In this document: positions 588 to 53,684 of the stretch, piece after piece
Layout of the letters: every line of letters begins with the position of its first letter
Position numbering within the stretch: the first letter of the stretch is position 1
Assembly: GCA_944386685.1 (NCBI GenBank)
Contig: CALXCA010000008.1
Span: 198-64,197 of the forward strand
Source of the DNA: an uncultured Clostridia bacterium
GTDB taxonomy: Bacteria; Bacillota; Clostridia; TANB77; CAG-508
DNA length: 64,000 nt
Direction of reading: 5' to 3'
Program-made: the position numbers and the translations under genes
The notes under the pieces: model-generated
The model's input: only the letters and a program-made list of their open reading frames with translations
What the model was told of the DNA's origin: nothing
The model's database searches: none

Positions 588-1682
588 CTACTCTCTTCCA
601 TCTGATTGGTCGTTTTTTATTTTTATATTTAATAGTTTCTCTAAATCAAATACTTTTGTTATATCAAATTCTTTAAGATCGTCTATTCCTCCATTTTTTG
701 CACTACCTCTTACTCCATCTTCCCAATCATAATAGTCAGATAAACTTAGAATTTTATCTACATATGTTTTTGCATATTCATCATCTTTATGTTCAATAAA
801 ATATGGAATTAAAGTTTTTCCAGATGAAAGTGATGCTAAAGCTCTATGATGCCCGTCAATTATATATGTATTACCATTATATTCTAGTGCACAAATATCT
901 CCTAAATTATAATTAAAGCCTTTTTTCTTAATTGATTGTGCTAAACTATCTATTGTAGTTCCGACAGGAGATTTTGCAATTGTATTTATATATGTTTGTG
1001 ATGGTAAAAACATTGCTGTATTTTTCCAATACTTAGGATAATATTTTCCTGTTCTATAATTTTCTTCTCCATCAACTATTATCTGTGCTAATTCTCTAGG
1101 GTTTGAAAATGATGTATCTACTATTAAATCATAATTATCAGGATTTGTTAAGTCTACTCCATATCTTTCTTTATATCTTTCTATTTCTGATAATTTTCTT
1201 TTTCTTGTTTGTTCTATTGCTTCATCTAATGAGTAAAATTTATCTTCTACTCCTCTTGTTTGGTCATTAAATACTCTTTGCCCTGCAATTTTTTCATTTA
1301 CTGTTAATCTTATTGCATAAGATTCTGGTATGTTACTCCATGCTAGTCTAGAATCTATTATATATACATTATTAGGATGTTCTGCTTCATTTATTAATTG
1401 TCCTCTTCTAGCAACTTCACTGTCTACCATTTTGTCTATTCTATTTCTTTTTTCTTTAAAATCTTCGTCTGTTTGTATATCTGTTAAACTTACATTTTTT
1501 CTATCTGGATATGTTCTATAATATTCTTCTTGTATTAATTGCCTAAATATATTTCCAACAGATATAATTTGTACTTTATACCCCATTTTTTCATATTTAT
1601 CTCTTATTAGTTTTACTACTGTTGATTTTCCACTAACTGGTTCTCCAGAAATTGTAATAATTTTGTTTCTTATTTTTTTCAT
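588..1682 (-). CDS. fusion protein: N-terminal cytidylate-kinase-like P-loop domain plus C-terminal ParB/Srx-like domain
   Basis: 364-aa ORF. Walker A ITISGEPVSGKST, Cmk-like blocks (IIDSRLAWSNIP, IRLTVNEKIAGQRV, NYDLIVDTS), then the ParB/sulfiredoxin-type motif YIIDGHHRALAS in the last ~150 aa. Confidence 0.7.
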   Translation of the reverse strand: MKKIRNKIITISGEPVSGKSTVVKLIRDKYEKMGYKVQIISVGNIFRQLIQEEYYRTYPDRKNVSLTDIQTDEDFKEKRNRIDKMVDSEVARRGQLINEAEHPNNVYIIDSRLAWSNIPESYAIRLTVNEKIAGQRVFNDQTRGVEDKFYSLDEAIEQTRKRKLSEIERYKERYGVDLTNPDNYDLIVDTSFSNPRELAQIIVDGEENYRTGKYYPKYWKNTAMFLPSQTYINTIAKSPVGTTIDSLAQSIKKKGFNYNLGDICALEYNGNTYIIDGHHRALASLSSGKTLIPYFIEHKDDEYAKTYVDKILSLSDYYDWEDGVRGSAKNGGIDDLKEFDITKVFDLEKLLNIKIKNDQSDGRE

Positions 1683-1872
1683 ATTAAATTTTCTTCCTTT
1701 CTTAGGCGTATTTAGTTATGAAAATAATTTCTTTCAAACTATTTACATTCCTTTTTTTAAGGTATAAATTCGATTTAAAATTATTTTTTCTACTTTTTTC
1801 TGCATTTATTTTACCATATTAACAATATTTTGTAAATTGTTTTTTGAACAATTTTATGCATGTTTGCTACTA

Positions 1873-2098
1873 GGGTCGGTCCCAACACGAAAAAGGGACC
1901 GACCCCAACACAAAAAGGGACCGACCCCAACACAAAAAGGGACCGACCCCAACACAGAAAGGGACCGACCCCAACACAAAAAGGGACCGACCCTAACACA
2001 AAAAGGGACCGACCCCAACACAAAAAGGGACCGACCCTAACACAAAAAGGGACCGACCCCAGTAGCCGACCCTAACACGAAAAAAAGAGAACCGGCAC
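1873..2098. repeat. GC-rich 22-bp tandem array (8 direct units of GGGACCGACCCCAACACAAAAA, one inverted core, terminal GAGAACCGGCAC box)
   Basis: Direct units start at 1895, 1917, 1939, 1961, 1983, 2005, 2027 and 2049. The inverted core GGGTCGGTCCC at 1873-1883 can form an 11-bp hairpin with unit 1. GAGAACCGGCAC lies at 2087-2098. Confidence 0.95.
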
Positions 2099-2116
2099 TT
2101 TTTTTACCTTAATTAT

Positions 2117-16173: not shown

Positions 16174-16206
16174 TTTATATTTTTTCCTTTCTATTTGGGC
16201 AATTTT

Positions 16207-16330
16207 GTGCCGGTTCTCTTTTTTCCTTTTTGCTGTTTTCTTGTTGTTATTGGGGTCGGTCCCTTTTCTTTGTTAGGGTCGGTCCCTTTCTTTGTTGGGG
16301 TCGGTCCCTTTCTTTGTTGGGGTCGGTCCC
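16207..16330. repeat. second GC-rich array: GTGCCGGTTCTC box plus 4 units of GGGGTCGGTCCCTTTCTTTGTT
   Basis: The box is at 16207-16218. Cores lie at 16252-16263, 16276-16286, 16297-16308 and 16319-16330, a 22-23 bp period. It is the reverse complement of the 1873-2098 array unit. Confidence 0.92.
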
Positions 16331-16407
16331 TTTTTGTTCCTTTTTCGCTATTATATCAATATTTTTTTTAGATTTCAATATTAATTTTAATTTTTGATAT
16401 TGATACA

Positions 16408-46905: not shown

Positions 46906-46980
46906 AGGGGCATAGTGTTAATGGTAGCACATCGGTCTCCAAAACCGCTTGTCTGGGTTCGAATCCTAGTACCCCTGCCA
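46906..46980 (+). tRNA. trnW: tRNA-Trp (anticodon CCA)
   Basis: AGGGGCATAGTGTTAATGGTAGCACATCGGTCTCCAAAACCG..GGTTCGAATCC..CCCCTGCCA. It folds as a cloverleaf with a CTCCAAA anticodon loop, a GTTCGAAT T-loop and an encoded CCA end. Confidence 0.9.
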
Positions 46981-53149: not shown

Positions 53150-53176
53150 AATATTTCCTCCTTTTGGTAATTGGGT

Positions 53177-53231
53177 AATTTGGTGCCGGTTCTCTTTTTG
53201 ACCAGGCAATTTGGTGCCGGTTCTCTTTTTG
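53177..53231. repeat. two direct copies of AATTTGGTGCCGGTTCTCTTTTTG (31-bp period)
   Basis: Copies lie at 53177-53200 and 53208-53231. They carry the same GTGCCGGTTCTC box that flanks the arrays at 2087-2098 (reverse complement) and 16207-16218. Confidence 0.92.
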
Positions 53232-53247
53232 TCCCATTTTTGATATT

Positions 53248-53550: not shown

Positions 53551-53579
53551 ATAATATTAAAGCACTGCTGTTATGTCAA
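53551..53579 (-). promoter_or_regulatory. near-consensus sigma-A promoter downstream of the T-box terminator
   Basis: The minus strand reads TTGACA (53579-53574), 17-nt spacer, TATTAT (53556-53551), about 50 nt upstream of the DUF1653 ATG. Confidence 0.55.
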
Positions 53580-53582
53580 AAG

Positions 53583-53684
53583 TTTGGTCGGTATTTGGGC
53601 AAATGTTTAGGCATTGTTTGGGCATTGTTTGGGCGGTATTTAGACTATTTAAACAAATCTTTGAGCAAATGTTTATATTTGGAC
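53583..53684. repeat. array of about 9 degenerate 10-12-nt units (ATTGTTTGGGC type) directly upstream of the -35
   Basis: GTTTGGTCG GTATTTGGGC AAATGTTTAGGC ATTGTTTGGGC ATTGTTTGGGC GGTATTTAGAC .. followed by the palindrome GACAATATTGTC. Confidence 0.75.

What the first reader, a model, noticed from the sequence alone, without database searches (positions are those of the whole stretch)
588..1870. Cytidylate-kinase-like / ParB-like fusion protein encoded directly downstream of the iteron-like array
ORF 588-1682 joins a complete Cmk-like P-loop kinase domain (GEPVSGKST, DSR.., DTS) to a ParB/Srx-fold domain carrying DGHHR. ParB-family N-terminal domains are known CTP-binding/CTPase switches. Some ParB/Srx proteins are kinases, for example the free-serine kinase SbnI. 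A covalent link to a CMP-kinase-like module therefore suggests a cytidine-nucleotide-coupled activity. The gene's promoter region abuts the 22-bp array, whose first unit is inverted. That arrangement is reminiscent of a ParB-type protein and its cognate repeated site. No partner ATPase (ParA) and no replication gene are present, so this is not a classical partition locus.
Basis: partly seen in the sequence, partly recalled or inferred. Interest (0 to 1): 0.62.

Follow-up and report, generated by a model that had tools for sequence, protein, structure and literature searches.

The report
CMP kinase fused to ParB/sulfiredoxin domain
The gene encodes a real but unannotated two-domain enzyme, a CMP-kinase-type nucleotide kinase joined to a ParB/sulfiredoxin-fold domain of the kind found in bacterial toxins, while the 22-bp repeat array next to it is a multicopy repeat scattered through the genome and not its binding site.

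Summary
ORF 588-1682 lies on the minus strand and encodes 364 aa. Residues 1-205 form a P-loop NMP kinase of the archaeal (d)CMP-kinase type. Residues ~213-300 form a ParB/sulfiredoxin (Srx) fold carrying DGHHR. AlphaFold gives pLDDT 89 and pTM 0.88.

Pfam does not call the C-domain. Foldseek returns only ParB/Srx proteins for it. Profile-profile comparison ties it to the DGHHR 'Tox-ParB' C-termini of RHS polymorphic toxins (99.3%, E 5e-20).

The fusion is a widespread family annotated only as 'cytidylate kinase' or 'AAA ATPase'. A ~360-aa clade occurs in low-GC gut Clostridia MAGs, in housekeeping synteny. A ~300-aa clade occurs in Bacteroidota and Deltaproteobacteria, and some of its members sit in integrase-NUDIX-fusion-viperin-like-pentapeptide cassettes.

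The proposed link to the array fails on four counts:
- strains with the identical protein carry from about 7 units down to a degenerate remnant
- 28 of 29 other orthologous loci have none
- a second array lies 14 kb away
- metagenome depth over the array is 31-45x that of the flanks

The most likely function is an active (d)CMP-type kinase whose ParB/Srx domain binds a nucleotide and regulates or extends the phosphorylation. That role is inferred, not shown.

The parts
588..1682 (-). Complete gene, 364 aa: NMP kinase fused to a ParB/Srx-fold domain
   Evidence: ORF list. An identical protein is found on 25 contigs. Full-length AlphaFold model has pLDDT 89.4 and pTM 0.88. The gene is covered by contigs of four chicken-gut metatranscriptomes.
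1068..1682 (-). N-terminal P-loop NMP-kinase domain (residues 1-205), archaeal (d)CMP-kinase type
   Evidence: PF13189 scores 32 bits against a cut-off of 28. TIGR02173 gives E 2.6e-14. Foldseek hits archaeal adenylate kinases, CMP kinases and the PF13189 structures 3hdt and 3fdi. Residues invariant across both clades are G13, G18, K19, G43, R47, D110, R112, R136, R143, R162, E166 and R169.
1620..1646 (-). Walker A / P-loop GEPVSGKST (residues 13-21)
   Evidence: Read from the translation. G13, G18 and K19 are invariant in 25 diverse family members.
783..1046 (-). Conserved linker (YPKxWxSPxxFLPxQ) and ParB/Srx-fold core (residues ~213-300)
   Evidence: Domain model pLDDT 88. Every listed Foldseek PDB hit is a ParB/Srx protein. 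The profile against PDB puts sulfiredoxin first (E 0.048) and KorB third (E 0.52). hhalign against the Tox-ParB-like toxin C-termini gives 99.3% and E 5e-20.
843..857 (-). DGHHR motif (residues 276-280), the predicted phosphate-binding or catalytic loop
   Evidence: The reverse complement of 843-857 reads GAC GGG CAT CAT AGA. G277 is invariant and R280 is kept in at least 90% of members. Clade variants are EGNHR, DGHHR and DGNHR in Clostridia and DGHKR in Bacteroidota. The motif aligns with GCHR of sulfiredoxin.
591..782 (-). C-terminal helical extension (with the YDWED motif) and a disordered tail ending in a conserved Arg (DGR, plus one extra E here)
   Evidence: The model shows helices 302-309, 314-331 and 347-351, and pLDDT is below 50 for residues 358-364. 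107 of 115 full-length homologues end in R or Rx.
1808..1836 (-). Best sigma-70-like promoter candidate for the gene (TTTACA, 17 nt spacer, TG-extended TAAAAT)
   Evidence: Consensus scan with 10 of 12 matches. This is a pattern match only, not evidence of function.
1866..2105 (.). Neighbouring 22-bp tandem array (about 9 units, first unit inverted) plus the flanking GTGCCGGTTCTCTTTTT element. Judged to be a dispersed multicopy intergenic repeat and not part of the gene's system.

Best explanation
**What it is.** The gene encodes a cytoplasmic two-domain nucleotide enzyme.

**Kinase domain.** The N-terminal domain is an active NMP kinase of the archaeal (d)CMP-kinase type. It binds ATP at the P-loop (K19). 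It binds the NMP through GxxFR (R47), DSR (R112) and the R162-x3-E166-x2-R169 helix. The LID arginines R136 and R143 close over the phosphates. The reaction is (d)CMP + ATP -> (d)CDP + ADP.

**ParB/Srx domain.** A rigid, highly conserved linker (YPKxWxSPxxFLPxQ) joins the kinase to a ParB/sulfiredoxin-fold domain of the DGHHR (Tox-ParB-like) type. The G-x-H-R loop of this domain is the phosphate-binding loop of the fold. I infer that this domain binds a nucleotide di- or triphosphate. It would then either gate the kinase according to nucleotide status or carry out a further phosphoryl-transfer or hydrolysis step on the kinase's product.

**Family and setting.** The protein belongs to a widespread fusion family that is not annotated as a fusion.
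- In its own clade (gut Clostridia with small, 26% GC genomes) it is a vertically inherited chromosomal gene that coexists with a canonical Cmk. This points to a specialised role rather than the sole housekeeping CMP kinase.
- In some Bacteroidota the same architecture serves as the kinase of viperin-like defence cassettes.

**The array.** The 22-bp array upstream is a genome-wide dispersed repeat. It happens to lie in the fabI-kinase intergenic region, where its first units provide a terminator-like hairpin for fabI. It is not a binding site for this protein.

**Shown versus inferred.**
- Shown: domain identities, the extent of the family, gene contexts, and the behaviour of the array.
- Inferred: the kinase substrate, nucleotide binding by the C-domain, and the coupling between the two domains.
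For: **Kinase.**
- PF13189 scores above its threshold and TIGR02173 gives E 2.6e-14.
- Members of the ~300-aa clade reach the TIGR02173 equivalog cut-off: 105-108 bits against 102.1.
- All catalytic and NMP-binding positions are invariant across 25 members that share only 23-64% identity.
- Structural matches are archaeal AK/CMK and the PF13189 structures.

**C-domain.**
- The model is confident and every listed Foldseek hit is a ParB/Srx protein.
- The profile against PDB places sulfiredoxin first, with GnHR aligned on GCHR.
- A library-wide HMM search finds the Tox-ParB-like ends of RHS toxins at E 1e-6 to 1e-7.
- hhalign gives 99.3% probability and E 5e-20.
- DGHHR is the defining Tox-ParB motif according to PMC3482391.

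**Coupling of the domains.** pTM is 0.88 for the two-domain model, and linker residues P216, K217, W219 and F225 are invariant within the Clostridia clade.

**The kinase is the core function.** Natural kinase-only variants exist (227-285 aa, one cluster with 273 member sequences).

**It is not the only Cmk.** A PF02224 Cmk (84 bits) lies about 3-6 kb upstream of the fusion gene in L021, L022 and L026.

**Housekeeping synteny.** Conserved neighbours are guaA, murD, a CBS protein, an AI-2E transporter and a DUF1980 protein.

**Viperin cassettes in relatives.**

**Array unrelated.**
Against: - No biochemical data exist for any member of the family or for any Tox-ParB domain. Literature searches found none.
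- The window protein scores below the TIGR02173 cut-off (53.6 against 102.1), partly because of an insertion of about 30 residues after the GxxFR motif.
- The residue before the Gly (D/E/N/K) and the first His (H/N) of the motif vary. A few members have degenerate motifs such as KGKDT or NGHDN. A strictly catalytic site would be expected to be more rigid.
- The ParB/Srx domain has been lost in some lineages.
- I could not inspect model coordinates, so the geometry of the two active sites relative to each other is unknown.
Confidence: 0.55

Rival explanations
1. Defence or conflict-system enzyme. As in the Bacteroidota relatives that sit in NUDIX-kinase/ParB-viperin-pentapeptide cassettes and defence islands, the protein would act in anti-phage nucleotide chemistry. 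It would supply or deplete (d)CTP-type nucleotides, or the Tox-ParB-like domain would act as an effector nuclease or NTPase.
For: - The C-domain's closest non-fusion relatives are toxin domains.
- The kinase matches the PADLOC pVip-kinase model at 57.7 bits.
- ~300-aa relatives lie directly between a NUDIX gene and a viperin-like radical-SAM gene next to an integrase (L158, L159, L163, L164). Others lie beside an Sa_NUDIX/2TM effector, GmrSD and HEPN genes (L161, L162).
- In the window species the gene borders a strain-variable island.
Against: - No viperin, NUDIX or pentapeptide homologue occurs within +-8-10 kb in any of 36 Clostridia-clade loci or in the window.
- The gene keeps a housekeeping synteny across more than 10 species.
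- The protein is identical in strains whose adjacent island differs.
- The PADLOC hit is no stronger than the generic archaeal-CMK hit (57.7 against 53.6 bits).
Confidence: 0.15
2. An ordinary extra CMP/NMP kinase whose C-terminal ParB/Srx domain is only a structural, oligomerisation or decaying appendage with no ligand or catalytic role.
For: - Kinase-only variants persist in nature.
- Motif positions other than G-x-H-R drift, and a few members have degenerate motifs.
- Pfam models do not recognise the domain.
Against: - The domain, its linker and the G-x-H-R loop are kept across two clades that share only about 25-35% identity, and across phyla.
- Mean column identity of the C-domain is 45% within the Clostridia clade.
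- The fold is predicted with high confidence.
Confidence: 0.15
3. The C-domain is a small-molecule or protein phosphotransferase like free serine kinase (SerK/SbnI) or sulfiredoxin. The NMP-kinase domain would recycle its nucleotide by-product.
For: - SerK (5x0g), SbnI (5ujd) and sulfiredoxins are among the Foldseek hits.
- The G-x-H-R loop aligns with GCHR of sulfiredoxin.
Against: - These hits are weaker than those to ParB/KorB and cover only the core of 82-103 alignment columns.
- The catalytic Cys of sulfiredoxin is replaced by H or N.
- The C-terminal substrate domain of SerK/SbnI is absent. Here the region after the core is only about 50 residues of helix.
- No cysteine-, serine- or siderophore-pathway genes are conserved nearby.
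Confidence: 0.07
4. One reading: a ParB-type DNA-binding protein whose cognate repeated site is the adjacent 22-bp array, acting as an autoregulatory or partition-like module.
For: - The array lies about 30 bp upstream of the predicted -35 of the gene.
- The same arrangement is present in one sister species whose protein is 84% identical (L007).
Against: - Among strains with the identical protein the array ranges from about 7 units down to 1-2 units or a degenerate remnant with no exact core.
- There is no array upstream of the other 28 orthologues.
- A second array at 16250-16333 lies between unrelated genes.
- The repeat is 31-45 times deeper than its flanks in DNA metagenomes, with more than 100 different flanks.
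- The protein has no GERRxR box and no recognisable HTH.
Confidence: 0.03

Closest known systems
Archaeal-type (d)CMP kinase (TIGR02173) / Pfam PF13189 Cytidylate_kin2
   Same: - P-loop.
- GxxFR NMP-binding motif.
- D-S-R-L-A-x-W motif.
- LID arginines.
- R-x3-E-x2-R helix.
- YDL(I/V)(I/V)DT strand.
- Relatives in the ~300-aa clade reach the TIGR02173 equivalog cut-off.
   Different: - It carries an insertion of about 30 residues after GxxFR.
- It scores only 53.6 bits against a cut-off of 102.
- It has a C-terminal ParB/Srx domain of about 150 residues, which free-standing CMP kinases lack.
Tox-ParB, the DGHHR ParB-fold toxin domain of polymorphic (RHS/filamentous) toxins (Zhang et al. 2012, PMC3482391)
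   Same: - The DGHHR motif.
- The same core. hhalign gives 99.3% probability, E 5e-20 and 30% identity over 84 columns.
   Different: - There is no N-terminal RHS or secretion module.
- No immunity gene lies downstream.
- The domain is fused instead to a cytoplasmic kinase and sits in a housekeeping context.
- The biochemical activity of Tox-ParB is itself unknown.
Sulfiredoxin
   Same: - It is the best compact structural match (6ky4, TM 0.74 on the target, rmsd 3.1 Å).
- It is the top PDB sequence-profile hit, with the G-x-H-R loop aligned on the ATP-binding GCHR.
   Different: - The catalytic Cys is replaced by His or Asn.
- No peroxiredoxin partner is evident.
ParB/KorB/Noc CTPase N-terminal domains
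   Same: - Same fold. These are the top Foldseek E-values (8qa9, 6t1f, 6sdk, 7bnk).
- The order of elements is equivalent: a P-x-Q strand, an SI..G helix, and the loop before the R-A helix.
   Different: - No GERRxR arginine box.
- No HTH DNA-binding domain.
- No ParA partner.
- No cognate site that co-varies with the gene.
Free serine kinases SerK / SbnI
   Same: - ParB/Srx fold used as a small-molecule kinase.
- Both appear among the Foldseek hits.
   Different: - The match covers only the core of 82-87 alignment columns.
- The SerK/SbnI C-terminal domain is absent.
- No pathway context is conserved.
Viperin-associated nucleotide kinases (CMPK2-like; PADLOC pVip-kinase / VakA)
   Same: - The kinase domain hits PADLOC pVip-kinase at 57.7 bits.
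- Bacteroidota relatives with the same fusion sit directly upstream of a viperin-like radical-SAM gene.
   Different: - No viperin lies near the window gene or its 36 closest loci.
- The viperin paper I read (bioRxiv 10.1101/2023.09.13.557418) does not mention a ParB/Srx extension.

Membership tests
NMP kinase, (d)CMP-kinase type (PF13189 / TIGR02173) | Score above the curated family threshold | tested here: inconclusive
   PF13189 scores 32.0 bits against a cut-off of 28, so it passes. The TIGR02173 equivalog model scores 53.6 bits against a cut-off of 102.1, so it fails. ~300-aa relatives pass with 105-108 bits.
NMP kinase, (d)CMP-kinase type (PF13189 / TIGR02173) | Walker A P-loop, NMP-binding GxxxR, D-x-R, LID arginines and the R-x3-[DE]-x2-R helix all intact | tested here: met
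   G13, G18, K19, G43, R47, D110, R112, R136, R143, R162, E166 and R169 are invariant in alignment A3. The assignment of roles to these residues rests on my own knowledge of E. coli Cmk structures.
NMP kinase, (d)CMP-kinase type (PF13189 / TIGR02173) | Phosphorylates CMP/dCMP with ATP | not testable with these tools
   Needs an enzyme assay.
ParB/Srx fold superfamily | The ParB/Srx alpha+beta core fold | tested here: met
   The domain model has pLDDT 88. All 50 listed Foldseek PDB hits are ParB/Srx proteins, and sulfiredoxin gives TM 0.74 with rmsd 3.1 Å.
ParB/Srx fold superfamily | Conserved phosphate-binding loop before the R-A helix (GERR / GCHR / DGHHR) | tested here: met
   DGHHR at residues 276-280. 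G277 is invariant and H279 and R280 are kept in at least 90% of members. The loop aligns on GCHR of sulfiredoxin and GARR of KorB.
ParB/Srx fold superfamily | Pfam PF02195 (ParB_N) or PF08857 (ParBc_2) above the gathering score | tested here: not met
   ParBc_2 gives E 0.05-0.12 at 13-14 bits. ParB_N matches 1 of 28 members at E 0.017. Sequence models miss the domain; fold and profile-profile comparisons find it.
Tox-ParB polymorphic toxin domain | DGHHR motif and profile homology to the toxin C-termini | tested here: met
   hhalign of A2 against A4 gives 99.3% and E 5e-20. The motif is defined in PMC3482391.
Tox-ParB polymorphic toxin domain | N-terminal trafficking or repeat module (RHS, filamentous haemagglutinin, WXG...) and a downstream immunity gene | tested here: not met
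   The N-terminus is a kinase. The downstream gene is queH here, or a CBS protein in relatives. The protein is therefore not a polymorphic toxin.
ParABS-type ParB (partition / CTP clamp) | GERRxR CTP-binding box | tested here: not met
   The box is replaced by DGHHR / EGNHR.
ParABS-type ParB (partition / CTP clamp) | HTH DNA-binding domain after the N-domain | tested here: inconclusive
   Only about 50 residues of helix follow the core, and no HTH Pfam hit was found. Foldseek alignments to ParB or KorB beyond the core have rmsd 12-17 Å. Weak, non-specific DNA binding cannot be excluded.
ParABS-type ParB (partition / CTP clamp) | Adjacent ParA and a cognate repeated site that co-occurs with the gene | tested here: not met
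   No ParA lies beside the gene. The array is absent or variable in orthologous loci and is multicopy genome-wide.
Viperin (pVip)-associated kinase | Genetic linkage to a viperin radical-SAM gene (within 3 genes) | tested here: not met
   tblastn with the L158 viperin-like protein finds nothing in the window or in L001-L036. The feature is met for the ~300-aa relatives in L158, L159, L163 and L164.
Free serine kinase (SerK/SbnI) | ParB/Srx N-domain plus the family's C-terminal substrate domain, in a cysteine or siderophore pathway context | tested here: not met
   The match covers only the core (5x0g 87 columns, 5ujd 82 columns). There is no such C-domain and no such context.

The most novel reading that the evidence does not exclude
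The DGHHR ParB/Srx domain is a second catalytic or sensing centre that works on the kinase's own product. It could make the protein a self-contained CMP->CDP->CTP (or ddh-nucleotide) phosphorylation unit, or a kinase gated by a nucleotide triphosphate. The same chemistry would then explain both the viperin-cassette versions and the still-unknown killing mechanism of Tox-ParB polymorphic toxins, which would act on nucleotides rather than as nucleases. That would define a new enzymatic branch of the ParB/Srx superfamily.
Probability: 0.15. Interest if true: 0.7.

Novelty: new variant of a known kind. Interest (0 to 1): 0.45.

Why it matters
- **Hidden family.** ParB/Srx domains are now known as CTP switches, ATP-dependent phosphotransferases and ADP- or ATP-dependent small-molecule kinases. 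Here one is hard-wired to a CMP-type kinase. The family has several hundred 90%-identity clusters: 241 hits in the first search and at least 659 in the second. Public databases label them only 'cytidylate kinase' or 'AAA ATPase'.
- **Route to Tox-ParB.** The fusion gives a soluble, non-toxic, easily assayed handle on the biochemistry of the DGHHR branch, whose toxin members have never been characterised.
- **Viperin systems.** Some prokaryotic viperin cassettes use a kinase with an extra nucleotide-handling domain. The viperin paper I read does not mention this.
- **The array.** GC-rich tandem arrays in these AT-rich gut Clostridia genomes are dispersed repeats and should not be read as operators of the nearest gene.

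Tried and rejected
- **Fold search with the full-length model.** Only kinase hits came back, which says nothing about the C-domain. I solved this by modelling the C-domain alone.
- **Pfam and NCBIfam on the C-domain.** Nothing was significant.
- **Rfam on the whole window.** No family matches the array. The only hit is tRNA-Trp at 46906.
- **Literature searches** for ParB/Srx with kinase, ParB with cytidylate kinase, DGHHR, viperin with ParB, and pVip with Nudix. None describes the fusion. Only Zhang et al. 2012 and the viperin-kinase preprint were useful.
- **Contexts of intermediate-clade members P0139, P0141 and P0123.** The contigs are too short to inform.
- **The idea that the fusion is the organism's only CMP kinase.** Rejected for the clade, because L021, L022 and L026 carry a PF02224 Cmk a few kb away. 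This could not be checked for the window's own genome.
- **Linkage to queH.** Conserved only in the three closest species (L007-L009), so it was not used as functional evidence.
Full report
**1. The observation**

The ORF 588..1682 lies on the minus strand and encodes 364 aa.

The 22-bp tandem array is real. TRF places it at 1881-2061 with 8.2 copies and 95% matches. The 11-nt core GGGACCGACCC occurs 13 times in the window against 0.02 expected by chance, and the unit at 1873-1883 is inverted.

On the minus strand the order of features is:
- the fabI stop codon at 2117
- a GTGCCGGTTCTCTTTTT element
- the array
- a promoter-like site (-35 at 1836, TG-extended -10 ending at 1808)
- the start codon at 1682
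- a gap of about 120 nt, then queH, which runs off the window start

**2. The N-terminal domain**

- Pfam PF13189 (Cytidylate_kin2) passes its threshold with 32 bits against 28.
- The archaeal (d)CMP-kinase model TIGR02173 gives E 2.6e-14 but falls below its equivalog cut-off (53.6 against 102.1 bits).
- Foldseek with the full model returns archaeal adenylate kinases, CMP kinases and the two PF13189 structural-genomics entries 3hdt and 3fdi, with TM 0.74-0.77 on the target.
- I aligned 25 members spanning both clades of the family at 23-64% identity. The P-loop (G13, G18, K19), the NMP-binding G43-x3-R47, D110-S-R112, the LID arginines R136 and R143, and R162-x3-E166-x2-R169 are all invariant.

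The functional roles of these positions are assigned from my own knowledge of E. coli Cmk structures. I conclude that the kinase is almost certainly active and is most probably (d)CMP-specific.

**3. The C-terminal domain**

Sequence models fail on this domain. Other evidence is consistent:
- The two-domain AlphaFold model is confident, with pLDDT 89.4 and pTM 0.88.
- The domain modelled alone has pLDDT 88. It hits only ParB/Srx-fold proteins in the PDB: KorB, ParB, Noc, sulfiredoxin (TM 0.74, rmsd 3.1 Å), Atu1540, PadC, SbnI and SerK.
- A profile of the domain places sulfiredoxin first among PDB sequences, with G-n-H-R aligned on the ATP-binding GCHR. KorB comes third.
- A library-wide HMM search over 1.84 billion representatives finds 304 proteins. 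Apart from further fusions, these are C-terminal domains of RHS-type polymorphic toxins (P0220, P0221, P0232 and cassette fragments).
- hhalign between the fusion C-domain and these toxin ends gives 99.3% probability and E 5e-20.

Zhang et al. 2012 define this toxin domain, Tox-ParB, by its DGHHR motif and predict a metal-dependent phosphotransferase or nuclease activity (PMC3482391). The domain is therefore a DGHHR-type ParB/Srx domain. It is not a GERRxR CTP-clamp domain.

**4. The family**

*Clostridia clade.* The window protein has 241 homologues with E <= 1e-3, nearly all 355-390 aa long, from uncultured low-GC Clostridia MAGs. The window organism lives in the chicken gut.

*Bacteroidota/Deltaproteobacteria clade.* A second clade of about 300 aa has the same architecture and includes Dysgonomonas hofstadii, Saprospiraceae and Prolixibacteraceae.
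- It comprises at least 659 clusters.
- It shares the linker motif W-x-S-P-x-x-L-x-P-T-Q, DGHKR and YDWED.
- Its kinase domains reach the TIGR02173 equivalog cut-off.

*Annotation.* Sources call these proteins 'cytidylate kinase', 'cytidylate kinase family protein', '(d)CMP kinase' or 'AAA family ATPase'. The fusion is therefore present in databases but not recognised as a fusion.

*Variants and the C-terminal tail.*
- Kinase-only variants exist in L023, L025, L030, L028 and L035.
- 107 of 115 full-length Clostridia-clade proteins end in an arginine (DGR, EGR or EER).
- The short variants keep this ending too. I cannot explain it.

**5. Context**

*Window species and closest relatives.* The gene lies between the fab/acc cluster and queH. 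Beyond queH the strains differ, carrying various mobile or island genes.

*Other species.* In more than 10 other species the gene sits in a conserved guaA-...-fusion-CBS-AI-2E transporter-DUF1980 arrangement. This is housekeeping synteny with no obvious functional partner.

*Canonical Cmk.* Three of these genomes also encode a canonical PF02224 Cmk a few kb upstream. In this clade the fusion is therefore an additional kinase.

*The ~300-aa clade.* The picture is mixed.
- In Dysgonomonas and a related MAG lineage the gene lies in a tight cassette: integrase, NUDIX, fusion, viperin-like radical SAM, pentapeptide protein, a 155-aa protein. The radical-SAM protein scores 94.7 bits on PADLOC pVip and 88.6 bits on NF038283, below that model's cut-off.
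- In a deltaproteobacterial MAG the gene follows an Sa_NUDIX/2TM effector inside a GmrSD/HEPN island.
- Other members are in plain contexts.
- No viperin or NUDIX homologue is near any Clostridia-clade locus or in the window.

**6. The array**

Five lines of evidence separate the array from the gene.
- *Variable among strains with the identical protein.* The number of exact core copies is 5, 7 and 7 in L001, L003 and L005 (TRF: 4.2, 6.2 and 7.2 units), and 1 in L004 (about 2 units by TRF). L002 and L006 have no exact core and keep only a degenerate remnant. There a different segment of about 230 bp, bounded by inverted copies of AAAAAGTGCCGGTTCTCTTTTTT, takes the array's place.
- *Absent from most orthologous loci.* Of the 29 loci from other species examined, only the closest (L007, 84% identical protein) has the array upstream.
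- *Present elsewhere.* A second array of four units in the opposite orientation lies at 16250-16333, again beside GTGCCGGTTCTCTTTTT. That flanking element also occurs twice at 53174-53234.
- *Multicopy in metagenomes.* In four chicken-gut DNA metagenomes the summed contig depth over the array is 31-45 times that of the single-copy flanks. Assemblies break at the array, and more than 100 contigs per run carry the repeat with different flanks.
- *Not over-expressed.* In four metatranscriptomes the array-to-flank depth ratio is about 4-35, no higher than in DNA. There is therefore no sign of special expression. The gene itself is covered at low depth.

The degenerate units at the fabI-proximal end of the array form the only terminator-like site in the region (2072-2050, minus strand). 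The array is thus a dispersed, strain-variable intergenic repeat and not an operator or parS-like site for this protein.

**7. Mechanism (inference)**

The kinase domain phosphorylates (d)CMP. The ParB/Srx domain is attached through an invariant linker. Its phosphate-binding G-x-H-R loop most probably binds a nucleotide di- or triphosphate.

It may act in one of two ways:
- as a sensor that gates the kinase
- as a second catalytic step acting on the product

Three observations favour a specialised nucleotide-handling role over simple housekeeping:
- the domain's kinship with toxin domains
- the use of the same architecture in viperin cassettes, where the kinase's job is to feed CTP to the radical-SAM enzyme
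- coexistence with a canonical Cmk

I put 0.55 on this general reading. Within it the exact role of the C-domain is open.

**8. Novelty and verdict**

The two domain families are known. Their fusion, its breadth, its link to Tox-ParB and its presence in viperin cassettes are not described in any paper I could find.

It is a new variant of a known kind and is moderately interesting. The proposed link between the array and the ParB-like domain is wrong.

Noticed in passing
window 16250-16333 (and flank 16198-16227): A second array of the same 22-bp unit, with 4 copies in the opposite orientation, lies between unrelated genes. As at the first array, the element GTGCCGGTTCTCTTTTTT sits beside it.
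   Followed up: yes
window 53174-53234 and 53577-53641: Two tandem copies of the GGTGCCGGTTCTCTTTTTG element occur without the 22-bp array. About 350 bp further on there is a different 23-bp tandem repeat (CAAATGTTTGGGCGGTATTTGGG, 2.9 copies). This may be another member of a family of GC-rich intergenic repeats.
   Followed up: no
L002 9553-9835, L004 9533-9835, L006 (strains of the window species): In these strains a segment of about 230 bp bounded by inverted copies of AAAAAGTGCCGGTTCTCTTTTTT takes the place of the array. It contains a small hairpin (TTAGGGACTGTAAAAAAGTCCCTGA). It looks like a MITE-like element or a repeat-mediated replacement.
   Followed up: partly
window 29223, 49980, 57781, 59130, 61790, 62617: Six copies of a 34-66-nt element (consensus GTGCATCTGTTTGAGCGAAGCTCTTTTATT, some followed by a hairpin) are dispersed over the second half of the window. 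Rfam finds no match there.
   Followed up: no
L158 5543-9243 (Dysgonomonas hofstadii JACIEP010000016.1); L163/L164 4571-8265: A tight cassette lies next to an integrase: NUDIX (146 aa), Cmk-ParB/Srx fusion, viperin-like radical SAM (284-287 aa; PADLOC pVip 94.7 bits), pentapeptide-repeat protein (333 aa) and a 155-aa protein. It is a viperin-type defence cassette whose kinase carries a ParB/Srx domain.
   Followed up: partly
L161 5173-6918, L162 2867-4612 (deltaproteobacterial MAG): The fusion gene directly follows an Sa_NUDIX/2TM-effector-like gene (PADLOC RTasNUDIX 249 bits) inside an island that also carries GmrSD, HEPN and an N6/N4 methyltransferase.
   Followed up: partly
window 591-602 (C-terminal DGRE) and homologues P0001-P0120: 107 of 115 full-length Clostridia-clade homologues end in an Arg preceded by acidic or small residues (DGR, EGR, EER), after a variable, disordered stretch. 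The kinase-only variants keep this ending too (…EEGR, …DETR, …CAER). Its function is unknown.
   Followed up: partly
L023, L025, L030 (8001-~8690); L028, L035: These are natural kinase-only versions of the gene. In the first three the ORF stops just after the linker motif (YPKYWANPTC…), and one such cluster has 273 member sequences. L028 and L035 have the kinase plus a short tail and no ParB/Srx domain.
   Followed up: partly
L021 2065-2751, L022 912-1601, L026 3073-3759: A canonical-type Cmk (PF02224, 84 bits) lies about 3-6 kb upstream of the fusion gene. It has divergent motifs: SSRD in place of DGRD, and no clear R-x3-D-x2-R.
   Followed up: partly
L001/L003/L005 12980-14714 (beyond queH, outside the window): In some strains of the window species a ParA/ParB_N pair, a large SNF2/helicase gene (2176 aa) and a SpaA-domain surface protein follow queH. 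Other strains carry different genes there, so this is a strain-variable island bordering the locus.
   Followed up: no
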